From a virus (Duplodnaviria; Caudoviricetes): a stretch of DNA of 64,000 bases. The notes under the pieces are model-generated. The model did no database searches. It was given only the letters and a program-made list of their open reading frames with translations, and was not told the origin of the DNA. The stretch lies in the IMG/VR virus record IMGVR_UViG_2738541225_000002, positions 1 to 64,000 of that record; one strand, 5' to 3'. A program made the position numbers and the translations under genes. This document shows positions 1,140-49,243 of the stretch, in pieces; position 1 is the stretch's first letter; each line of letters starts with the position of its first letter.

Positions 1140-1368
1140 TAAAGATAGCTCCGAAGTCTGGTTCGTCATCCTCCCGTAAAGGCTCTTCCTGATTGCGATA
1201 CTTGATCGGGTTCAGGAAATGCCCCCACGTCGTTTTAGGGTGGCCGTCTGCTCGTTCCATGAAGAAGATACCAGCCCGGCGCAATGCGTCGCATTGTTTC
1301 GATTTAAGTGGGGTCCCCGTCAGTTCGATCATTTCTTCCCGGGTGATGATGTCGTGATCGTGTCTCAT
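1123..1368 (-). CDS. Excisionase-like protein (DUF4224-type)
   Basis: 81 aa overlapping the int start; homologous to 37354-37584; RBS AGAGGAAAGACC. Confidence 0.8.
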   Translation of the reverse strand: MRHDHDIITREEMIELTGTPLKSKQCDALRRAGIFFMERADGHPKTTWGHFLNPIKYRNQEEPLREDDEPDFGAIFNGRKA

Positions 1369-1528
1369 GGTCTTTCCTCTGCACGCGGGCTATAGCGCTG
1401 TCTGCCTCTTCGCAAGCGCGTTGAATGTCGGACTGGGTCAATGTCCGTTTTCTGACGCTGGCCGATAGCCTGCCAATTTTGATATCGAAATCTGAAAGTA
1501 GAATGGTACCTGGTTGCCATCGCAGCAT
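1304..1528 (-). CDS. Hypothetical early protein
   Basis: ATG at 1528 preceded by GGAGACCACA RBS; 74 aa. Confidence 0.5.
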   Translation of the reverse strand: MLRWQPGTILLSDFDIKIGRLSASVRKRTLTQSDIQRACEEADSAIARVQRKDHETRSRHHHPGRNDRTDGDPT

Positions 1529-1577
1529 TGTGGTCTCCGTTGATAGGGTGAACCACAATGCTAACGACAGCTGCGGG

Positions 1578-1763
1578 TTATTTCTGATTAGGCTTAATCA
1601 GGTTTGGTTTGTTGAGAAATGCACCTTTCTCCCGGGTTATCTTCACGTTCCGGGGAAAGTGCATGCCGAGCTCGCTGCGTGCGAACGCTTCGATTATGGC
1701 GTTGGTGCCGTCTGGTAGAACGACATGCACCGCATCGCCTTGCTTCAGGGAGAGTTTCAGCAT
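1578..1763 (-). CDS. CsrA/RsmA-like small RNA-binding protein
   Basis: 61 aa. MLxLxxxxG start and GxxxPxxVxxxRE end align by eye with CsrA (MLILTRRVGE...GVNAPKEVSVHRE). Confidence 0.65.
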   Translation of the reverse strand: MLKLSLKQGDAVHVVLPDGTNAIIEAFARSELGMHFPRNVKITREKGAFLNKPNLIKPNQK

Positions 1764-2328: not shown

Positions 2329-4490
2329 TATGCTTTCTCCTCGGATTTGTTCAGTTCGGCGATACGTGCATTTTTGATATCTGTCAGGCGGCGCAGGCGG
2401 CTGCTGAGATGGCGGGAGTGCTGAGTGTCTCCTTTTGATTCTGCATCCTTGCGGTGTATCTCCAGCTCCCGGGCGATAGGGGCAAACACCTTGTTAACTT
2501 CATTGGCCGATACGGCGGTGGCGAGCGTGTTGGCTACACGGGTCAGTTTGTCGTCAAACTCCTGGCGCAAGCGCGCTGCATCCTCGGCGGTTTCGCTGGC
2601 GTTTTTGAGGTCAAACTCAGCTTTGTTTTTCTGGCGGTACTCCAGATTGTCGTAAAGGCCCATGAAAATATCGCCGCTGAATCCGAGGCCGGATAACGCC
2701 TTTTTGGTGGCGTCCGTCAGCGATTTTTTAGCAGCTTCGCCGTCGCAGATCGGGCCGTATTTGCTGCCGTAAATATATGGCGTGGAACCGTACGCGTATT
2801 CCTCACCGCGAACGCCGTTCACCAGAAACCACAGGCGAATTTTGATTACGTGGTGTTTTTCAGTGAGGAGGCCGCCATTGCCGTCGGAGATCACTTCCCA
2901 TGCCTGGTTGTTTTCGCTACCCTGGGTCTTACGAGTTATCGGCGCGCCATTGTCGAAACGCTCTTCGATGATATCCACGCCCCAGCCGATCCCCTTCATG
3001 CCAAACTCTTTGGTCGCCATCATGGTCAGATACGTGCCGTTGATCGAGGTGCCGCCGCCGTTTTGCGTGAAGGCTTTGGTAAAGCGCTCATCGGTTTTGA
3101 AGACGCGCTTCCACAGCGCCAGGTTGTCCTCTTCGGTGCCTGGCTTACCGACTGACTGTACGACCTCTTCAGCGCTCGGTAGCACTTCTTGCTGATTTAC
3201 CTGCACAACCAACTGAGCGGCATCACCAGCAATCTTTTCCGCTTTAACGCTTAACTTTTCCTCGGGTTCGCTGGCGTTGTCTTTGTCGGACGCATAAACG
3301 CCATAACCCATATCGTTAAGCGCCTCACGCGCCTGTTTCGCTTGGGTATCCGTTACAACCGGCGGCGCTACTTCCGCTTTTTCGCCTTCATTTGAGGCAA
3401 TATTTTGCGTTGCTTTAACTTCTGACTGCTTAACGGATCCGGTTTCGCCTTCTTCAAAACGGCCGTTAGCTTCCAGCCATGAAGCGATGTGGCGGCGCAG
3501 GCTTTCGGGGAAATGGTAGGTATCTTTTGCCGGCGCGTTCTGCACAACGCCAAAGATGCTGGCGCGGTCGTATTTGAGGATCTCCGGGGTAGTGCGCAGA
3601 GATGCAGACCAGCGTTTAAAGTCTTCCCGCTCCTCGGCAATAATCTTTTCTGCATCGCGGAGGTTGCCGGATAACACCGGCGCTGCAGGCGCGATAGGGA
3701 GGAGGGCGACGGCTATTTCCTGATCCAGTGTTGCGTAGGTGTGTTTGTAACCGCGCTGGGGCGCAACGGTAAAACTGGCCGCATCATCGCCAGAATTACT
3801 GGCAGCCAGTGAAGATGATTTATTAGCTGATGCGAGTATTTCGTCGCGCTTGCCCGGATTTTCAAGCCAGCGTTTTACAAACTGAGAAATAGCCGCTTTG
3901 CCCGGCGACTGGTTTTCAAAGTTGGTGAAGATCCCCTGAATCAGGTTATTCAGCCCTTCAACGTGCATGTGTTGAACCGGCTCGTTATTGTGCAGGGCAC
4001 ACAGTACATTGTGGTTAAATCGGTCCTCGTCTTCCAGGGGGTCGTCGTGGTTATTCAGGTCGTCCAGATAATCAACAACCTGCGAATAAAGATGACCGTT
4101 CATTTCTGCGTTGCTGAAGAGCAGTACGGCAGCGAAACGCTCCTTGGGCGATACCGTCATCAGATCGATGATTTCATCACCGCCAGGCAGATCCGACATT
4201 TCCGCGCCCTGGCTGTTAACCACCCATTTTTCACCGTCGAAGGTATTCTCTTGGGCGAATTGCTCATCGAACTGGCCGACGGCGGGGCGCGGCTGCCCCA
4301 CGGAGTCTTCCCAGATTTTAGGTTTGAAATAGTTATCGCCGTTTGCCGGGTAAAACTCCCACAGTTTGCCAACCATAATGCTTTCGGCAACCTTCTTATT
4401 TGGCGCATCGATGGCGATGGCCAGCGGCACGGCGCCGCTGTCTTTGATGGCTGATTTTTTCGGCTCAAACAGGCCGTGGTAGATGGTCAT
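2328..4490 (-). CDS. RecE-like N-terminal region fused to a Rad52/Sak-like single-strand annealing domain
   Basis: C-terminal GTSINGTY...FGxxGxGWG...AAKKSLTDATKKALSGLG motif. Confidence 0.65.
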   Translation of the reverse strand: MTIYHGLFEPKKSAIKDSGAVPLAIAIDAPNKKVAESIMVGKLWEFYPANGDNYFKPKIWEDSVGQPRPAVGQFDEQFAQENTFDGEKWVVNSQGAEMSDLPGGDEIIDLMTVSPKERFAAVLLFSNAEMNGHLYSQVVDYLDDLNNHDDPLEDEDRFNHNVLCALHNNEPVQHMHVEGLNNLIQGIFTNFENQSPGKAAISQFVKRWLENPGKRDEILASANKSSSLAASNSGDDAASFTVAPQRGYKHTYATLDQEIAVALLPIAPAAPVLSGNLRDAEKIIAEEREDFKRWSASLRTTPEILKYDRASIFGVVQNAPAKDTYHFPESLRRHIASWLEANGRFEEGETGSVKQSEVKATQNIASNEGEKAEVAPPVVTDTQAKQAREALNDMGYGVYASDKDNASEPEEKLSVKAEKIAGDAAQLVVQVNQQEVLPSAEEVVQSVGKPGTEEDNLALWKRVFKTDERFTKAFTQNGGGTSINGTYLTMMATKEFGMKGIGWGVDIIEERFDNGAPITRKTQGSENNQAWEVISDGNGGLLTEKHHVIKIRLWFLVNGVRGEEYAYGSTPYIYGSKYGPICDGEAAKKSLTDATKKALSGLGFSGDIFMGLYDNLEYRQKNKAEFDLKNASETAEDAARLRQEFDDKLTRVANTLATAVSANEVNKVFAPIARELEIHRKDAESKGDTQHSRHLSSRLRRLTDIKNARIAELNKSEEKA

Positions 4491-4522
4491 TGGTCTTTCC
4501 TCATTCGTGATTAATTCGCTGG

Positions 4523-4807
4523 TTAGGCGTTTTGTTTAATTTCAGGAAGCAGCCCAGAGATCACACGATCTGCGGTGTTTTTTGCTTCTTGCAGCCGTTC
4601 CAGTTCACTTTCTAGTTGAACCTTCTGTCTTTCCGCCAGCTCTTTAATTTCTGAGCTATCGACCTTGAGATAGCACTCGCCATTTCCTCCACCTGCTAAA
4701 ATCCCGGAGGAACTGCATTCGTTACCGCAAATTTTGATGATCCTGTTTGCACGTTCTAAGCCGTCTTTAACTTCTTTAATTCTTTCCAGTAAATTTTTAA
4801 TATCCAT
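4523..4807 (-). CDS. Hypothetical coiled-coil protein
   Basis: 94 aa ORF with AGAGGAAAGACC RBS. Confidence 0.7.
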   Translation of the reverse strand: MDIKNLLERIKEVKDGLERANRIIKICGNECSSSGILAGGGNGECYLKVDSSEIKELAERQKVQLESELERLQEAKNTADRVISGLLPEIKQNA

Positions 4808-4850
4808 GGTCTTTCCTCTTGGTTACTGGCGCTGGTCACGCGCCGGGTCT

Positions 4851-5174
4851 TTAAAACGGAACGTCGTTTTCTTCAATCGGAGTGTGATCTATGCATAGCA
4901 ACTGCTGAATCTGGTCTTCAATAACACCCAACTCCTTCTTAGCTTCGGCAGAGATTTTCTCTTTCTTCGCGCGAAGGGCATGGACCTGCATACCAACAAT
5001 GTCGATGGGTTCTAAAGCCGGAATGGCAACCTCCACCGTTTTAGTCGTAACGAGAACGTACAGATCAGGGTATTGCTGTGACATATCACAGGTGAATGAG
5101 TGATAAGACGTCGGAAGATATGGGTTTGTTGTTGCGAGAACGTAGATAGTTACGGGGATGGTAAGCGCTTCCAT
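4851..5174 (-). CDS. Hypothetical protein, first gene of the pL operon
   Basis: ATG 5174 with AAGGAG RBS; 107 aa. Confidence 0.7.
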   Translation of the reverse strand: MEALTIPVTIYVLATTNPYLPTSYHSFTCDMSQQYPDLYVLVTTKTVEVAIPALEPIDIVGMQVHALRAKKEKISAEAKKELGVIEDQIQQLLCIDHTPIEENDVPF

Positions 5175-5295
5175 AGCGACTCCTTGATGATATATACTCA
5201 GAGCCGATCGGCGACTCTGTCGTTGGTCTTTCCTCGCTGCAGGGTTGGTCCCCTGTAGCATTCCGGGCGGTTTGGTCACTGTCCCGGGTAAATTA

Positions 5296-5317
5296 GCCCA
5301 CTTCGGTGGGCTTTTTT
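5296..5317 (+). terminator. Intrinsic terminator (T tract on the + strand)
   Basis: AGCCCAC-TTCG-GTGGGCT-TTTTT. Confidence 0.65.
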
Positions 5318-5397
5318 ACGCCTGAAGATTGCCGGTCTTTCCCGGCTGTCAGGGCTGGTCAGGCCGCTGGTCTTTCCTCGCGTTGCGTGAATGCTTG

Positions 5398-5565
5398 AAA
5401 AAAATGCCCGGGGCGCCCGGGCCAAGACTACACACAGCAATTTTGGATTCGTTGCGGTCTTTCCCGCATGTCATCGTACTGTCGGCGACCCGAAGAATTC
5501 GCGCCCGTCTTTCCGGACTGTCAGAACTTTCTGAACAACTGCCGCGTGGTTAGTGCGTCGTTGAT
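5398..5565 (-). ncRNA. Putative ~170-nt pL-derived small RNA/leader
   Basis: Runs from the predicted pL start (ATCAACGACGCAC, lambda pL-like) to a GC hairpin plus U7 at 5422-5398; contains two GAAAGA-loop hairpins and an RprA-like segment. Confidence 0.55.
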
Positions 5566-5572
5566 GTGTGAT

Positions 5573-5623
5573 AAATTAGTCATGACTAACATCATAGTCA
5601 AGATTAAAATAAGTCATGACTAA
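5573..5623 (-). promoter_or_regulatory. pL promoter and oL operators, prophage 1
   Basis: TTGACT-17-TAATTT (5601-5573); perfect palindrome TTAGTCATGACTAA at 5576-5589 and near-copy at 5610-5623. Confidence 0.8.
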
Positions 5624-5668
5624 CAAAAAGGTTAAAAGAAAAGATAACTAATTGAGTTATAACTTAAA

Positions 5669-6067
5669 TTATTTTTTGAGTGTTTTTCGTGTGGTTAGAA
5701 GTTCTTCGAATAATTTGTTGAAACCATCTACTTTTTCACGCAATTCATTCAAATGGCGTTCTTTCTCTGATGCTGGTAGCTGATCAAATAATTCTAAAAG
5801 CTCCTGCTGATGGGGGGTTAGTTCAAGCGGCAAATCTTCTACTGAGGCGGGGATTTGATCATCATCTCCGAAAAGAATCCAGGTGGGAGAGCACCGCAAC
5901 ACTTTGCTAAGCCGGAAAAGATTTTTTCCTGTGGGTTCACTATCATCTCTTTCCCATTGGGAAACGGAGACGTGAGAAATCTGCAGCGCCTGTGCCAAAG
6001 AGCGCTGTGTAAAATTCATTTCTTTTCTGCGGTTACGGATCCGCGATCCCGGGGATTCTATCGTCAT
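5669..6067 (-). CDS. Phage repressor (DicA-like XRE HTH, no S24 peptidase domain)
   Basis: TQRSLAQALQISHVSVSQWERDDSEP HTH; 132 aa; divergent from cro. Confidence 0.88.
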   Translation of the reverse strand: MTIESPGSRIRNRRKEMNFTQRSLAQALQISHVSVSQWERDDSEPTGKNLFRLSKVLRCSPTWILFGDDDQIPASVEDLPLELTPHQQELLELFDQLPASEKERHLNELREKVDGFNKLFEELLTTRKTLKK

Positions 6068-6150: not shown

Positions 6151-6348
6151 ATGTATAAATCTGACGCAATTAAATACTTTGGCAGTTTAACCAAGTTGGC
6201 GACCGCCGCTGGCGTGCGGTTGCCATCTGCCAGCGCTTGGGGAGATATCATCCCAGAGCGTAGAGCTGCAAGGCTGGATCGAATTACAGAAGGGGAGTTG
6301 AAATACGACCCCGCTCTGTACGACTCCACCCGTTCAAAACAAAGTTAA
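6151..6348 (+). CDS. cro: Cro/DicC-like regulator
   Basis: AIKYFGSLTKLA...W.DIIPERRA pattern and position. Confidence 0.85.
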   Translation: MYKSDAIKYFGSLTKLATAAGVRLPSASAWGDIIPERRAARLDRITEGELKYDPALYDSTRSKQS

Positions 6349-6408: not shown

Positions 6409-6855
6409 GTGGAAAACCTCGATGAACTGAAACGAGAGATTTTCAACTGGGCAGCGGAAAGCGGGCAGGAGTTTGTCGCCATCGAGATCAGCCGTATGTG
6501 GTTTCGTCTCGGCGGCAATACCGGCGCGCTGAAGCTGCACCAGATTGAAGACGCAGCAGGTAACGCCGACTGGCGGGCCATCAACAACAATCGTCAGCAG
6601 ATCTTTCGCTGGCTGCGTGGCGAGACAAAAGCTGCGCGGGCAAAAACCATAGCCCTTTCCAGAGCGATGGAATCGGCGCTACCGGCGGAACGTTACGCGC
6701 GCTTGGGTATGTCCACCCAGTATTTGATTTGTGTAGCCATACGCGAGTTCGCCGCGGCGATTATAGCGCTGCTGCTGGAGGCAAGAGACGGCCCGCAGCA
6801 GGTGAACAGGGCATTGCAAGCTATGCGGGAAACACAGCGCCTGACCAGCGTTTAA
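6409..6855 (+). CDS. CII-like / YdaT-type regulatory protein
   Basis: Position after cro; NRQQIFRWL...MESALP motif. Confidence 0.65.
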   Translation: MENLDELKREIFNWAAESGQEFVAIEISRMWFRLGGNTGALKLHQIEDAAGNADWRAINNNRQQIFRWLRGETKAARAKTIALSRAMESALPAERYARLGMSTQYLICVAIREFAAAIIALLLEARDGPQQVNRALQAMRETQRLTSV

Positions 6856-6875
6856 CCTGTACCGAGGAAAGACCA

Positions 6876-7097
6876 ATGAGAACACAAGATCGCATCACCT
6901 GGCGAAACGGGTTTCGCCGGAACGGGGTACAAGTCCCGATTGAAGATATCGAATCGATTTTCGAGGAGCGTCGCGCTGCTGCGCTGACGATCTGGGAACG
7001 CTACGAACTGCGCAAAGCGGCCCTGCAGGAAGCGGGACTCTCTCAGAAAGAATACGAAATCGCCTGCCGCCAGCTGGCTGACTCGCTGGGGATCTGA
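6876..7097 (+). CDS. Hypothetical protein
   Basis: ATG 6876 directly after GAGGAAAGACCA; 73 aa. Confidence 0.7.
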   Translation: MRTQDRITWRNGFRRNGVQVPIEDIESIFEERRAAALTIWERYELRKAALQEAGLSQKEYEIACRQLADSLGI

Positions 7098-9477: not shown

Positions 9478-9515
9478 CCGCGCCTGACCAGCGCTACATA
9501 ACCGAGGAAAGACCA

Positions 9516-10166
9516 ATGACCACGAATTTAAATTACCCAAAACCAGTGAATCCTGATGATGGCTGCGACTGGCTGCCCGTTATTTTATGGCGCATGAACG
9601 CTGGCGCCCGAGCTCGTAGCCGTTCCGTGTTTGTTTCGGCTCCACGCCCGGCTCCTGTTGACGGCATTACTCCACAAAAACCGGTTAAGCGTGAAGTAGC
9701 AGCGCCCGTAGTATCCGGCCGCCAGCGCAAAACGCATATCGGGACTGTGATTTATTCCAGAGGCGAAAAAAGCGTTCGCCTGAGCGAAGGCGCGACCGTC
9801 TGGTCTGCTGGCTCCAATGAGCATTTTGATAAAATAACAGGCCAGCGCGTCGGCAGTATTGGCCGGCATCGCCTGGTGCTGGAGAGTATTAAGCCCCTGA
9901 GAAAGACTACCCAGGAAGTATCCGCCCAGCAGCTTGTTGCGCTGATGAAGGGTAAAAAGCTGTCGTACCAGAACATCCTTTCAGCCATTAAAAAACATCA
10001 TCCCGGTGCTGAAATCACCTTACGCGATCTGCAAAAACGTATCGCAACGATGCTCGCATCGAATCACGTCGGAATTATTCGACATGATGACATGCCGGTG
10101 CCGCATTTCACACTCACCAGCGTGGATCCCCGCTATTACGCCAACTCAGAAAAAACGGGGGTTTAG
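9516..10166 (+). CDS. Hypothetical protein
   Basis: 216 aa; RBS GAGGAAAGACCA. Confidence 0.75.
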   Translation: MTTNLNYPKPVNPDDGCDWLPVILWRMNAGARARSRSVFVSAPRPAPVDGITPQKPVKREVAAPVVSGRQRKTHIGTVIYSRGEKSVRLSEGATVWSAGSNEHFDKITGQRVGSIGRHRLVLESIKPLRKTTQEVSAQQLVALMKGKKLSYQNILSAIKKHHPGAEITLRDLQKRIATMLASNHVGIIRHDDMPVPHFTLTSVDPRYYANSEKTGV

Positions 10167-48575: not shown

Positions 48576-49243
48576 GGAACCATCGAATAATATGTTAGTT
48601 ACCAGCCTCGTTAGGGCGAACTGATAATTGCTCTCAAAAGACCAGCATAGAAGCCTGTTGCTCTGGTTGAATGTTCCGGCAAGTTGAAAATGATTGGTTC
48701 AATGAGCTCTTTCGATATTTAAATGCTATCGATAACTTAAATGAAGCTATCATCACGTTATCACTGCCAGCCAACACCGAAACGGCAGTGGTCAGTTAAA
48801 AAGCAGAAAAGCCTCTCTTGGGTGGCTCCTGAGAGATTTTAGTTTTCTAACTGGTACTAACCAAAGGTCGCATATCTATGCGGCCTTTTTTTTAGCCGGT
48901 TTCATGGCTTGAGGACATCCTGGACGAGAATATGTGACAAAACCAATCAGGGGAAACAGGAATGCCCTGTGAGCGGATTTACGAATCAGTAAGAACGTTT
49001 ATCCCCACAAAAGGATAAGATGGCTTTTATCCCTTTGTGGGGGTAAAAACCGTATGGCCTCGCATCTGCGGGGCTTTTTTATTCGCAAAGGTAAAACGAT
49101 GAAGAGCTTAGATATTGAATCCATAGGCGGGAGGCTGATGGCGATTGAGTATGACGGTTTGTCATGCGCATCGTTGCCAGTTTCAGAGTTCCCCATCGAC
49201 AGTACACCTTTAACTCTCCCTCAATTCATGCTCAAGGATGTGT

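What the first reader, a model, noticed from the sequence alone, without database searches (positions are those of the whole stretch)
5200..5565. About 390-nt non-coding pL leader built like a CsrB/RsmZ-type sponge
Seen: no credible ORF lies between the predicted pL start (~5565) and the first gene (5174). Three hairpins share the loop GAAAGA with different, compensating stems: GTCCG/CGGGC (5503-5518), TGCGG/CCGCA (5453-5468) and GCCGG/CCGGC (5331-5346). There are also two GCGAGGAAAGACCA copies with no start codon after them (5368, 5224) and an internal terminator (5398-5422). Established: CsrB/RsmZ RNAs display repeated GGA loops to titrate CsrA. Inference: the leader acts as a decoy or timer for the phage CsrA-like protein, or sequesters host CsrA after induction.
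Basis: partly seen in the sequence, partly recalled or inferred. Interest (0 to 1): 0.75.

Follow-up and report, generated by a model that had tools for sequence, protein, structure and literature searches.

The report
Phage leader RNA with antisense regulator
The long untranslated start of this prophage's early-left transcript is a conserved regulatory RNA region that carries decoy copies of the ribosome-binding element shared by the phage's early genes and encodes, on the opposite strand, a small RNA complementary to that element, so it looks like an RNA-against-RNA switch rather than a sponge for a CsrA protein.

Summary
GGAAAGAC occurs 14 times in the window against 1.8 expected. The leader is conserved and modular in 23 related proviruses.

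The CsrB comparison does not hold:
- GGA is not enriched, 9 observed against 8.4 expected.
- No CsrB/RsmZ model matches the sense strand.

Three things are actually there:
- **A pL-proximal sRNA-like unit, 5566-5398.** It ends in an RprA-like 17-mer plus terminator.
- **Decoy copies of the shared early-gene start-site element,** GAGGAAAGACCA(A)UG.
- **A structured small RNA of about 115 nt on the opposite strand, 5202-5317.** It is IsrB-like. Its exposed stretch is perfectly complementary over 12-14 nt to five early-gene start sites and to one leader decoy.

The sRNA stretch and the start sites co-vary across five genome groups.

The 61-aa ORF is a divergent CsrA-superfamily protein. However, the motif follows the sRNA and not that gene.

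Best reading: the leader is a sponge or target for the phage's own anti-start-site sRNA. This is inferred from sequence and has not been shown.

The parts
5573..5623 (-). pL promoter region: -35 TTGACT (5601-5596), -10 TAATTT (5578-5573), and two copies of the palindromic operator TTAGTCATGACT(AA) at 5623-5612 and 5589-5576
   Evidence: Read. The conserved leader starts at CATCAAC (5566) in 23 relatives whose promoters and operators differ. RNA-seq contigs leave 5532-5655 uncovered in 4 of 4 runs.
5398..5566 (-). pL-proximal sRNA-like unit (about 169 nt): 5' conserved start, hairpins H1 and H2, a variable linker, the RprA-like 17-mer and terminator T1
   Evidence: RprA model 40.2 bits against a gathering score of 70, E 0.011 over 3.5 kb and 0.00064 over 201 nt. 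93% mean column identity among 11 distinct sequences.
5503..5518 (-). Hairpin H1, GUCCG-GAAAGA-CGGGC
   Evidence: One compensatory variant, GUCUG/CAGGC, in L123 and L106. The U-G pair forms only on this strand.
5453..5468 (-). Hairpin H2, UGCGG-GAAAGA-CCGCA
   Evidence: Invariant in 11 of 11 sequences, so there is no covariation to judge the pairing by.
5424..5440 (-). 17-mer UUGCUGUGUGUAGUCUU, identical to the RprA consensus just before its terminator
   Evidence: alignment. In 77 of the 80 loci that also have a repressor-like hit, it lies downstream on the same strand.
5398..5422 (-). Intrinsic terminator T1
   Evidence: The stem covaries among relatives.
5368..5381 (-). Decoy D1, GCGAGGAAAGACCA, with no start codon
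   Evidence: 14-nt perfect complement of sRNA positions 23-36. In relatives an ATG follows, opening a 24-codon frame as read from the sequence printed; the ATG is absent here.
5331..5363 (-). CUGACCAGCC element followed by hairpin H3, GCCGG-GAAAGA-CCGGC
   Evidence: H3 has a compensatory variant, GCCCG/CGGGC, in L123, L025, L106 and L032. The unit is duplicated in L023, L034 and L089.
5295..5312 (+). Terminator of the antisense sRNA (stem), with its U-run on the + strand
   Evidence: The T-run is on the + strand in all 20 aligned relatives.
5202..5317 (+). Antisense sRNA, IsrB-like. It has a 5' hairpin pairing GAUCGG with UUGGUC, a single-stranded UUUCCUC, hairpin A (loop UUGGUC), hairpin B (loop UUUGGUCA) and a terminator.
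   Evidence: isrB model 29.7 bits against a gathering score of 35. 17 of 39 predicted pairs have compensatory changes. The + strand folds more stably in 20 of 20 sequences, by a mean of 11.4 kcal/mol. Own model R1 scores 128 bits here.
5193..5198 (+). Candidate -10 (TATACT) of the antisense sRNA promoter
   Evidence: TATA[A/C]T is kept in 20 of 20 aligned relatives: T, A, T, A and the last T are invariant, and the fifth base is A or C. The -35 is poor and its spacing is not conserved, so the promoter is inferred.
5224..5237 (-). Second GCGAGGAAAGACCA copy; it is the template of the sRNA's complementary stretch
4851..5174 (-). First gene of the operon (107 aa, phrog_2479, unknown function), with its own AAGGAG site
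4805..4818 (-). Start site of the 94-aa gene, GAGGAAAGACCAUG
   Evidence: 12-nt complement of the sRNA. An upstream hairpin has the loop GUGACCAGC.
4488..4502 (-). Start site of the 720-aa exonuclease gene, GAGGAAAGACCAAUG
   Evidence: 13-nt complement. phrog_2489 exonuclease.
1366..1379 (-). Start site of the DUF4224 gene, GAGGAAAGACCAUG
   Evidence: 12-nt complement. Pfam DUF4224.
6863..6878 (+). Start site of the 73-aa gene in the rightward operon, CGAGGAAAGACCAAUG
   Evidence: 14-nt complement. Preceded by a hairpin with loop CUGACCAGC.
9503..9518 (+). Start site of the 216-aa gene in the rightward operon, CGAGGAAAGACCAAUG
   Evidence: 14-nt complement. Preceded by a hairpin with loop CUGACCAGC.
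1578..1763 (-). 61-aa divergent CsrA-superfamily ORF (phrog_2482)
5669..6067 (-). Repressor-like HTH gene (132 aa, no peptidase domain found), upstream of pL on the same strand
   Evidence: Pfam HTH_3 and Phage_CI_repr. Highest RNA-seq contig depth in 4 of 4 runs.

Best explanation
The 390-nt leader is a conserved, non-coding, two-strand regulatory locus of a lambdoid prophage of Enterobacterales.

**What is shown from sequence comparison**
- The + strand encodes a structured sRNA of about 115 nt (5202-5317) related to Salmonella IsrB.
- Its stretch UUGGUCUUUCCUCG is perfectly complementary over 12-14 nt to the ribosome-binding and start-codon element GAGGAAAGACCA(A)UG. At least five early genes in both early operons share that element.
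- Many of those start sites are preceded by a hairpin with the loop YUGACCWGC. That loop can pair over about 7 nt with the sRNA's hairpin loops.
- The sense leader carries further copies of the same elements without start codons. Three of them (H1-H3) expose GGAAAGAC in hairpin loops.
- The first 169 nt of the leader end at a strong terminator preceded by an RprA-like 17-mer.

**What is inferred**
- The antisense sRNA is a translational repressor in trans of the shared-start-site early genes. The known parallels are P1 c4 and P4 CI.
- The pL leader, made in bulk when pL fires, either soaks this sRNA up or is captured by it. The repeats would then work as a sponge or timer for an RNA, not for CsrA.
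- The terminated 5' unit is probably a chaperone-bound sRNA carrying two of the decoy loops.

The direction of control (leader titrates sRNA, or sRNA shuts the leader down) is open.
For: **The antisense sRNA is real**
- Near-threshold isrB match on the + strand, 29.7 bits against a gathering score of 35.
- The -10 pattern TATA[A/C]T is kept in 20 of 20 relatives.
- 17 of 39 consensus pairs have compensatory changes.
- Whole hairpin stems are replaced while the loops UUGGUC and UUUGGUC stay.
- G-U pairs fall on the + strand. The + strand is more stable in 20 of 20 sequences.
- The terminator U-run is on the + strand.
- My model R1 finds the sRNA in 71 of 79 loci fetched through the CsrA-like gene. 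In every one it lies on the strand opposite that gene, starting about 3.1-3.8 kb before it.
- R1 also finds it in distant prophages: L009 at 49.5 bits, L057 at 44.8, L036 at 42.5, L110 at 34.0, L004 at 30.4 and L111 at 28.9.

**It matches start sites in trans**
- In the 64-kb window, 6 sites outside the sRNA gene match sRNA positions 22-36 over 12-14 nt. Five of them abut start codons of ORFs of 73-720 aa.
- About 0.008 copies of a given 12-mer are expected in this window (my own arithmetic).

**sRNA and start sites change together between genomes**
- The variants are GAGGAAAGACCA (window group), GAGGCAAGACCA (L205), GAGGCATGACCA (L009), GGAGCATAACCA (L057, L036) and CGAGTTTTGACCAAT (L004, L110, L111). 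Each is matched by the sRNA of its own genome.

**The shared start site goes with the sRNA**
- An 11-mer ending 0-4 nt before an ATG recurs 3 or more times in 19 of 30 loci with an R1 hit. It does so in only 3 of 90 loci without one, and 2 of those 3 carry the same kind of 11-mer; L070, the one I printed, is a 60-bp tandem repeat.

**The sense leader is a conserved RNA**
- 23 relatives with different promoters and operators keep the same leader start and modules.
- The number of decoy units varies between them.
- H1 and H3 have compensatory variants.

**Weak expression hint**
- RNA-library contigs of 4 runs cover the leader at low depth up to 5515-5531.
- They leave the promoter region uncovered.
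- In 3 of 4 runs they break at 5197-5234, where the sRNA starts.
Against: - No experiment or stranded read shows the sRNA, its ends or any regulation. The contigs carry no strand information, and one run bridges the break.
- The sRNA gene overlaps one copy of a repeated DNA element, so complementarity to the other copies follows automatically. Concerted change could also come from gene conversion of a recombination 'linker', or from a protein reader whose specificity shifted.
- The related loci share ancestry, so the counts are not independent.
- In the minimum-energy fold, the UUGGUC part of the complementary stretch is paired in the 5' hairpin. That leaves only UUUCCUC free.
- In L205 the one hairpin of this type I saw (the locus's only GGAAAGAC on that strand) keeps GGAAAGAC while the start sites read GGCAAGACC. 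The loop hairpins therefore do not simply follow the sRNA.
- H2 is invariant, so its pairing is untested.
- Gifsy-2 IsrB itself lacks the complementary stretch. The Gifsy-2 exonuclease start site lacks the motif, and R1 scores only 18.5 bits there.
- The -35 of the proposed promoter is poor.
- For the three weakest groups (L004, L110, L111) most matched sites are not next to an ORF by my simple test.
Confidence: 0.45

Rival explanations
1. The leader is a CsrB/RsmZ-like protein sponge that titrates the phage's 61-aa CsrA-like protein, or host CsrA. That protein represses the early genes by binding the GGA-containing start-site element.
For: - The 61-aa ORF is a divergent CsrA-superfamily member. 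Its family profile finds proteins of which 4 of the 10 small hits tested pass Pfam's CsrA cut-off.
- hhalign to those proteins gives 98.3% probability, E 2e-14.
- Leu2, Leu4 and an Arg at the position of CsrA Arg44 are present (the role of these residues is recalled).
- The AlphaFold model has five strands at CsrA-like positions, pLDDT 84.
- The start-site layout, a hairpin loop upstream plus a site over the Shine-Dalgarno, resembles CsrA targets (recalled).
- 71 of 79 loci with the gene also have the leader and sRNA module.
Against: - GGA is not enriched in the leader, 9 against 8.4.
- No CsrB/RsmZ model hits the sense strand.
- What is conserved is an 8-13-nt word, not GGA. L205 start sites read GGCAAGACC, without GGA.
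- The start-site hairpin loops (UGACCA) hold no GGA.
- L009, L057, L036 and L004 have the shared start site and the sRNA but no family member in the DNA held.
- 8 of 79 loci with the gene have no sRNA and 1-4 same-strand GGAAAGAC copies. In the three loci I printed, the only one at a start site is the DUF4224 gene.
- Several family members lack the Arg.
- Foldseek finds no CsrA structure; nothing reaches E 0.001. A swapped dimer may escape a monomer search.
- Pfam gives the ORF itself only 9.8 bits.
Confidence: 0.17
2. The repeats are leftovers with no function of their own. They are pseudo start sites and remnants of small ORFs left by modular recombination at conserved gene-boundary 'linker' sequences. 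The antisense RNA, if made, acts only in cis on the first gene.
For: - In many relatives D1 is followed by an ATG and a 24-codon frame, read from the sequence printed; that start is lost in the window.
- Leaders differ by large insertions that include ORFs.
- The same element sits at gene boundaries directly after stop codons.
- Lambdoid phages are known to recombine at such boundaries (recalled).
Against: - The 5' unit is 93% identical across different immunity types.
- H1 and H3 keep their pairing through compensatory changes.
- Decoy units are duplicated rather than decaying.
- The word is kept to 12-17 nt at several genes per genome, and it changes in step with the sRNA.
- Of 90 other lambdoid loci in the same set, only 3 show any repeated pre-ATG 11-mer.
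Confidence: 0.15
3. The GAAAGA hairpins are boxB-like nut sites. An antiterminator binds them so that RNA polymerase from pL reads through T1 and the second terminator.
For: - Each H hairpin has a 5-bp G+C stem and a purine-rich loop, like lambda boxB (GAAAA or GAAGA loop; recalled).
- H1 and H2 lie before T1, and H3 lies before the 5295-5312 terminator.
- A strong terminator stands between pL and every pL gene, so some read-through device is needed.
- The conserved CGCACUAACC near the transcript start loosely resembles boxA (recalled).
- The 73-aa rightward gene has an Arg-rich N-terminus.
Against: - No N-like family was found among the 10 early proteins scanned in Pfam, nor among the 6 scanned in PHROGs.
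- The loop has six bases, not five.
- No such hairpin follows pR.
- The same word is a plain ribosome-binding site elsewhere.
- There is no sequence likeness to the HK022 early region, which holds the put sites.
Confidence: 0.1
4. The main product is the terminated 5' unit, acting on the host as an RprA mimic or anti-sRNA. The phage-internal motif copies are incidental.
For: - RprA model 40.2 bits, with a 19-nt identity to its consensus plus CAACGAAU.
- The 17-mer plus terminator is found in at least 120 viral contigs with 107 different surroundings. It also occurs in virulent Erwinia and Dickeya phages.
- Lambda makes an Hfq-bound sRNA, LPR1/PreS, from a terminator of its early-left operon (passages read).
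- Prophage anti-sRNAs with conserved 3' parts and variable 5' parts are known (passages of PMC4104026).
Against: - The score is below RprA's gathering score.
- The 17-mer has no match in lambda's early-left region within 4 mismatches.
- It has no phage-internal target longer than 10 nt.
- Host targets could not be searched, because the record is a provirus alone.
- This reading does not explain the repeats after T1, or the shared start sites.
Confidence: 0.13

Closest known systems
P1/P7 c4 antisense RNA and P4 CI RNA (phage immunity by small RNAs)
   Same: In both, a small structured phage RNA carries exposed stretches complementary to several repeated sites on an early transcript. One such site lies over a ribosome-binding site (c4: a2/b2), and others are upstream copies (c4: a1/b1; P4: seqA/seqC). 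This description is recalled; I read no paper on it.
   Different: - Here the sRNA is transcribed from the opposite strand of the leader, not processed from the same transcript.
- Its predicted targets are the start sites of at least five genes in both early operons.
- There is no sequence relation.
- Regulation has not been shown here.
IsrB of Salmonella Gifsy-1 and Gifsy-2 (Rfam RF01386)
   Same: - Both are antisense sRNAs in the early-left region of a lambdoid prophage with a RecE-like exonuclease.
- They share hairpin B, with its UUUGGUC loop, and the terminator (alignment).
- IsrB was seen on Northern blots at 88 and 94 nt and overlaps its flanking genes (passages of PMC2330248).
- IsrB is listed among ProQ-associated prophage sRNAs (passage of PMC5391140).
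   Different: - The window scores 29.7 bits, below the gathering score of 35.
- IsrB lies directly before the exonuclease gene, whereas this sRNA lies before the first gene.
- Gifsy-2 IsrB lacks the GGUCUUUCC stretch, and the Gifsy-2 exonuclease start site lacks the motif.
- The passages I read give no function for IsrB.
RprA (Rfam RF00034)
   Same: - 19 nt, AAUUGCUGUGUGUAGUCUU, identical to the consensus, followed by a terminator.
- A preceding hairpin with a GGAAA-containing loop, then CAACGAAU.
   Different: - 40.2 bits against a gathering score of 70.
- A different 5' half.
- It lies behind a repressor-controlled phage promoter.
- The rpoS-pairing stretch is not kept, judged against the consensus shown.
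CsrB/RsmZ-type protein sponges
   Same: A non-coding RNA with repeated short motifs, some in hairpin loops, that mimic the ribosome-binding region of regulated mRNAs. A CsrA-superfamily gene lies in the same operon.
   Different: - No GGA enrichment.
- No model match on the sense strand.
- Five copies of an 8-nt word rather than many GGA loops.
- The motif array and the CsrA-like gene occur apart.
sRNA sponges and anti-sRNAs (AgvB and AsxR of EHEC prophages); lambda LPR1/PreS
   Same: - Prophage RNAs that carry a target mimic and pair with another sRNA (passages of PMC4104026).
- An Hfq-bound sRNA formed at a terminator of the early-left operon (passages of bioRxiv 2024.10.31.621285).
   Different: - AgvB and AsxR lie in the late region and target host sRNAs.
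- The AgvB model scores only 17.5 bits here. It is not found at gathering level in the 30 loci scanned.
- Lambda has no copy of the 17-mer.
- Here the proposed partner is the phage's own sRNA.

Membership tests
CsrB/RsmZ sponge RNAs (Rfam clan CL00106) | Many GGA motifs, well above composition, mostly in hairpin loops | tested here: not met
   There are 9 GGA in 392 nt against 8.4 expected; 948 of 2000 shuffles reach 9. A.GGA occurs once against 2.3 expected.
CsrB/RsmZ sponge RNAs (Rfam clan CL00106) | Match to a covariance model of the clan on the transcribed strand | tested here: not met
   No clan member matches the minus strand up to E = 10. The only match is rsmX at 24.2 bits (gathering score 56), on the + strand.
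CsrB/RsmZ sponge RNAs (Rfam clan CL00106) | Binds and titrates a CsrA/RsmA dimer | not testable with these tools
   This needs gel shifts or in-vivo titration.
RprA (RF00034) | Model score at or above the gathering score of 70 bits | tested here: not met
   40.2 bits at 5396-5498, minus strand.
RprA (RF00034) | Conserved single-stranded stretch before the terminator | tested here: met
   19 of 19 nt are identical to the consensus (alignment).
IsrB (RF01386) | Model score at or above the gathering score of 35 bits | tested here: not met
   29.7 bits at 5232-5316, + strand. None of the 15 related loci reaches the gathering score.
IsrB (RF01386) | Antisense sRNA in the early-left region of a lambdoid prophage next to a RecE-like exonuclease operon | tested here: met
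   Window layout. Gifsy-2 layout, with a weak R1 match at the IsrB site. Passages of PMC2330248.
CsrA protein family (PF02599), for the 61-aa ORF | Pfam score at or above 27 bits | tested here: not met
   9.8 bits, E 0.089. There is no sequence match to CsrA in the PDB.
CsrA protein family (PF02599), for the 61-aa ORF | Homology shown through profiles or intermediate sequences | tested here: met
   The family profile finds 61 proteins at E <= 0.001. Of the 10 small ones scanned, 4 pass Pfam's CsrA cut-off at 34.9-51.6 bits. hhalign gives 98.3% probability.
CsrA protein family (PF02599), for the 61-aa ORF | CsrA fold: five strands plus a helix, in an interlaced dimer | tested here: inconclusive
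   The monomer model has five strands and no helix, pLDDT 84.1. Foldseek against the PDB gives nothing at E <= 0.001, and no CsrA entry is among the matches shown. The dimer was not modelled.
Lambda-type nut site (boxA + boxB + N) | A phage N-like protein with an arginine-rich motif, and a 5-bp hairpin with a GNRA-like pentaloop shortly after boxA | tested here: inconclusive
   The hairpins have 5-bp stems but hexaloops. No N-like family was found among the early proteins. Binding is not testable.
Trans-acting antisense immunity RNAs (P1 c4 / P4 CI kind) | An sRNA with exposed stretches complementary to two or more sites on early transcripts, one over a ribosome-binding site | tested here: met
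   Six trans sites of 12-14 nt, five of them over start sites. The match is computational only.
Trans-acting antisense immunity RNAs (P1 c4 / P4 CI kind) | Represses the target genes in vivo | not testable with these tools
   This needs reporters and mutants.

The most novel reading that the evidence does not exclude
IsrB-type prophage sRNAs are master translational locks. Each phage keeps one short start-site word on a whole set of early genes in both operons, together with one antisense sRNA that matches it. Word and sRNA drift together between phages, which gives phage-specific RNA immunity. The pL leader is the built-in sponge that unlocks the set once pL fires, so the switch has an RNA-level threshold on top of the repressor. 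The CsrA-superfamily protein and the RprA-like 3' cassette would be further layers of the same post-transcriptional circuit.
Probability: 0.3. Interest if true: 0.85.

Novelty: new variant of a known kind. Interest (0 to 1): 0.68.

Why it matters
Control of lambdoid early genes is textbook transcription biology: repressor, Cro, N and Q. If this reading holds, it adds three things.

- **A post-transcriptional layer.** A shared start-site word across both early operons, read by a phage sRNA and buffered by a decoy leader, would sit on top of that switch.
- **A function for IsrB-type sRNAs.** None is given in the passages I read.
- **An explanation for a very long untranslated pL leader** in a whole group of Enterobacterales prophages.

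The five co-varying word and sRNA pairs make the idea directly testable with reporters and compensatory mutations.

Two further findings are new leads for phage-host RNA biology:
- The RprA-like 17-mer plus terminator is a mobile cassette in at least 120 viral contigs.
- A divergent CsrA-superfamily protein is encoded in phage early operons.

My searches found no paper describing this circuit. That is six full-text searches of the held library, not proof that it is unpublished.

Tried and rejected
- **AgvB/AsxR membership of the 17-mer cassette.** I first assumed it. AgvB scores only 17.5 bits here. A locus with a CACAAC-type 5' part (L007) again gives RprA, at 43.2 bits, and not AgvB. No AgvB, AsxR, RprA or isrB hit reaches gathering level in 30 loci.
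- **HK022 put-like antiterminator RNA.** Only chance matches of 9-17 nt to the HK022 early region.
- **Lambda LPR1/PreS identity.** No 17-mer within 4 mismatches in lambda 32.0-38.5 kb.
- **CsrA by direct routes.** A PDB sequence search gave only ribosomal protein L6 at E 0.16. A Foldseek PDB search gave no match at E <= 0.001.
- **More distant relatives of the 61-aa family with genomic context.** Single proteins P0046, P0021 and P0029 gave no locus. P0051 gave 4 loci.
- **Genome contigs with a 37-nt pattern.** 0 hits. The shorter gapped pattern gave 10 loci in Serratia, Citrobacter, Raoultella, Escherichia, Pseudescherichia and Rosenbergiella, plus one Pseudaestuariivita record that I take to be an oddity.
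- **A fixed-offset count of shared 12-mers before ATG.** It was uninformative, and I replaced it with the 0-4-nt offset count.
- **A phage-internal target of the 17-mer.** Only 9-10-nt chance matches.
- **RNA-seq.** Only contigs of 4 runs could be laid. Uncovered parts and contig ends are weak hints.
Full report
**1. Setting**

The window is part of a 79.6-kb provirus record. The region under study is the immunity region of a lambdoid prophage.

- A 132-aa HTH repressor gene lies at 6067-5669 on the minus strand. It matches Pfam HTH_3 and Phage_CI_repr, and no peptidase domain was found.
- A divergent P22-Cro-like gene (6151-6348) is followed by a YdaT-like gene, replication genes and a helicase.
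- Leftward, after the leader, come six genes:
  - a 107-aa gene (phrog_2479);
  - a 94-aa gene;
  - a 720-aa exonuclease (phrog_2489);
  - Gp157;
  - a 61-aa ORF (phrog_2482);
  - a DUF4224 gene, followed by an ORF that I take to be the integrase from the layout of BUCT708.
- The closest named phages are two records labelled Stenotrophomonas phages BUCT708 and BUCT709, at 84% identity.
- 453 of 5426 complete E. coli genomes match part of the leader, and 3 match at least 80% of it.
- The antisense-sRNA pattern occurs in species genomes of Serratia, Citrobacter, Raoultella, Escherichia, Pseudescherichia and Rosenbergiella.

**2.

- GGAAAGAC occurs 14 times in the window against 1.82 expected.
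- It occurs 5 times in the leader against 0.01 expected.
- The leader folds better than all 100 shuffles, z = -4.83.

**3. The motif is a real ribosome-binding element**

Five of the 14 copies sit 9-10 nt before the start codons of ORFs of 73-720 aa. Three are in the leftward operon (4816, 4500, 1377) and two in the rightward operon (6866, 9506).

- Across the window and 20 related loci I collected 65 such start sites. They read GAGGAAAGACC(A)(A)UG.
- Most are preceded, 12-16 nt upstream and directly after the previous stop codon, by a short hairpin. Its stem covaries (GCGC/GCGC, GGCGC/GCGCC, AACGC/GCGTT) and its loop is YUGACCWGC.
- The leader copies therefore mimic a two-part start-site element of the phage's own early genes. 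None of the 14 copies lies beyond 9.5 kb at a start site.

**4. The leader is conserved and built of modules**

In 23 related viral loci the same order holds: repressor, a 499-1274-nt gap, then the 107-aa gene.

- The promoters and operators differ between them, and the repressors are 37-67% identical to the window's.
- Yet the transcript always starts with CAUCAAC(G/A)(A/G)CGCACUAACC...GUUGUUCAGAAA.
- Eleven distinct versions of the first 170 nt are 93% identical.
- After the first terminator, relatives carry one to three units of GAGGAAAGACCA - GACCAGC - H3-type hairpin. Such copy-number change is what one expects of a titration array.
- H1 (GUCCG/CGGGC to GUCUG/CAGGC) and H3 (GCCGG/CCGGC to GCCCG/CGGGC) keep their pairing through changes on both sides. 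H2 never varies.

**5. It is not built like CsrB**

- GGA is at the level expected from composition.
- The only match to the CsrB/RsmZ clan is a 24-bit rsmX match on the opposite strand.

**6. The 5' unit is RprA-like**

Rfam's RprA model matches 5396-5498 on the minus strand at 40.2 bits (gathering score 70). This includes a 19-nt identity with the consensus just before the terminator.

- The 17-mer plus a terminator is present in at least 120 viral contigs, with 107 distinct surroundings among the 123 stretches I compared.
- In 77 of the 80 loci that also show a repressor-like gene, it lies downstream on the same strand. In 66 of those it is within 1.5 kb.
- It also occurs in virulent Erwinia and Dickeya phages.
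- It behaves as a mobile 3' cassette of pL-proximal phage RNAs. None of the 30 loci scanned reaches a gathering score for RprA, AgvB or IsrB.
- Lambda makes an Hfq-bound sRNA at a terminator of its early-left operon (passages), but it has no copy of this 17-mer.

**7. The opposite strand encodes a structured sRNA**

The second terminator (5295-5312) has its U-run on the + strand. Rfam's isrB model matches 5232-5316 (+) at 29.7 bits, against a gathering score of 35.

Aligning 20 relatives shows four things:
- the -10 pattern TATA[A/C]T is kept in all;
- the words GGUCUUUCCU, UGGU and UGGU are invariant;
- whole hairpin stems are replaced;
- RNAalifold predicts 39 pairs, 17 of them with compensatory changes.

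G-U pairs fall on the + strand. Every one of the 20 sequences folds more stably as + strand RNA, by a mean of 11.4 kcal/mol.

The RNA has five parts:
- a 5' hairpin in which GAUC(A/G)G pairs with UUGGUC;
- a free UUUCCUC;
- hairpin A, with loop UUGGUC;
- hairpin B, with loop UUUGGUCA;
- a terminator.

A covariance model built from 17 sequences (R1) finds the sRNA in several sets:
- in the window, at 128 bits;
- in 71 of 79 loci fetched through the 61-aa gene;
- in distant prophages that share little else: L009, L057, L036, L004, L110 and L111;
- weakly (18.5 bits) at the IsrB site of Gifsy-2.

IsrB itself was detected experimentally in Salmonella (passages). It is listed as ProQ-associated (passage).

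**8. The sRNA matches the shared start sites, and both change together**

In the window, sRNA positions 22-36 are perfectly complementary over 12-14 nt to six sites outside its own gene. These are the five start sites and the leader decoy D1.

| Genome group | Start-site word | Matches to own sRNA |
|---|---|---|
| Window group | GAGGAAAGACCA | 12-14 nt at six sites |
| L205 | GAGGCAAGACCAAUG, at the exonuclease gene and a rightward gene | 17 nt at both |
| L009 | GAGGCAUGACCA | 12 and 15 nt |
| L057, L036 | GGAGCAUAACCA | 13-16 nt |
| L004, L110, L111 | CGAGUUUUGACCAAU | 13-23 nt |

- Among 120 lambdoid loci, a pre-ATG 11-mer repeated three or more times occurs in 19 of 30 loci with the sRNA. 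It occurs in 3 of 90 without it, and 2 of those 3 carry the same kind of 11-mer; L070, the one I printed, is a tandem repeat.
- These loci are related to one another, so the figures describe the data and are not independent tests.
- The start-site hairpin loop can also pair over 7 nt with loop A or loop B. This comes from my own inspection.

**9. The CsrA-like protein**

- Directly, the 61-aa ORF scores 9.8 bits on Pfam CsrA. It matches no CsrA in the PDB by sequence or by fold. The monomer model has pLDDT 84.1 and five strands.
- Indirectly, a profile of 18 family members finds 61 proteins at E <= 0.001 among 1.84 billion. Many of these are giant repeat proteins that match a short GD..V..PDG stretch.
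- Of 10 small hits scanned, 4 pass Pfam's CsrA cut-off. hhalign between the two sets gives 98.3% probability.
- I accept it as a divergent member of the CsrA superfamily.

The modules separate, however:
- L009, L057, L036 and L004 have the sRNA plus shared start sites and no family member in the DNA held.
- 8 of 79 loci with the gene have no R1 match at E <= 0.001 and 1-4 same-strand GGAAAGAC copies. In the three of these loci whose copies I printed, the only one at a start site is the neighbouring DUF4224 gene's, which travels with the gene. Five of these eight loci hold the full 9 kb upstream.
- Several distant family members lack the Arg that corresponds to CsrA Arg44 (the role of that residue is recalled).

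**10. Expression hints**

Four RNA libraries of one organism label, dated 2018, hold the region as contigs.

- The repressor gene has the highest depth, 92-171.
- 5532-5655 is uncovered in all four runs.
- The leader is covered at depth 5-10 up to 5515-5531.
- In 3 of 4 runs the contigs break at 5197-5234, with higher depth (22-46) downstream.
- This fits separate transcription units and some discontinuity at the sRNA's 5' end. It shows neither strand nor ends.

**11. Reading**

- The best-supported partner of the repeated words is the phage's own antisense sRNA.
- The existence of that sRNA is well supported. I put it at about 0.85.
- Its action on the start sites in trans is plausible, at about 0.55.
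- The role of the leader as its sponge or target is an inference, at about 0.4-0.45.
- The CsrA-like protein, an antiterminator reading of the GAAAGA hairpins, and a host-directed role of the RprA-like unit all remain open. They need not exclude one another.

Noticed in passing
window 5424-5440 (-); loci L004-L123; phage records: The exact 17-mer UUGCUGUGUGUAGUCUU plus a terminator, the 3' part of the RprA consensus, is a widespread phage cassette. It occurs in at least 120 viral contigs with 107 different surroundings. It also occurs in N4-like and jumbo phages of Erwinia and Dickeya.
   Followed up: partly
window 6842-6849, 9485-9492 (+); 4838-4831, 5361-5354 (-): Early-gene start sites have two parts. 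A short hairpin with a covarying stem and the loop YUGACCWGC sits 12-16 nt before GAGGAAAGACCA. The loop is complementary over about 7 nt to the sRNA's hairpin loops.
   Followed up: partly
window 5206-5211 (+) and alignment A3 columns 47-52: A GATC (Dam site) is kept in 19 of 20 relatives at the start of the antisense sRNA. It pairs with the UUGGUC of the complementary stretch, so the stretch may be partly masked.
   Followed up: no
window 4720-5234: In 3 of 4 RNA libraries the contigs covering the first two leftward genes have 3-9 times the depth of the leader contigs. This could mean a second promoter or a processing site near 5200-5234. The data are contigs only.
   Followed up: no
window 1365-1556 (-): A 63-codon frame between the CsrA-like ORF and the DUF4224 gene contains that gene's GAGGAAAGACC start site within its last codons. 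There the word may be held by coding as well.
   Followed up: no
window 6876-7097 (+): The 73-aa protein (phrog_2465, labelled 'adenylate cyclase' in BUCT708) has an Arg-rich N-terminus, MRTQDRITWRNGFRRNG. An RNA-binding role is conceivable.
   Followed up: no
L209 (Gifsy-2) 6700-6760 (-): The Gifsy-2 pL leader start (GTTCCGCTGGCCGGCGATAAGGCAAA) resembles that of the L098-type leaders. The leader family therefore reaches the Gifsy phages.
   Followed up: no
L098, L114, L116, L108, L035 leaders: In these relatives the place of H1 and H2 is taken by a stretch with CCACCACAACC. That is the kind of C/A-rich word described as a GcvB target mimic in AgvB (passage of PMC4104026). It sits before the same 17-mer.
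   Followed up: no
window 48972-49079 (+): A weak second match of the sRNA model R1 (22.2 bits, E 0.0026) lies in the late region.
   Followed up: no
L207; L062 and L070: L207 has tandem repeats of a 9-mer, with the most frequent 9-mers occurring 13-14 times. L070 has a 60-bp tandem repeat with at least 5 copies; L062 shows the same kind of repeated 11-mer but was not inspected.
   Followed up: no
L009 437-584; L024 12230-12318: The L009 prophage lies next to the host SraC/SdsR sRNA locus. L024 holds an sRNA-Xcc1 match at 68.3 bits.
   Followed up: no
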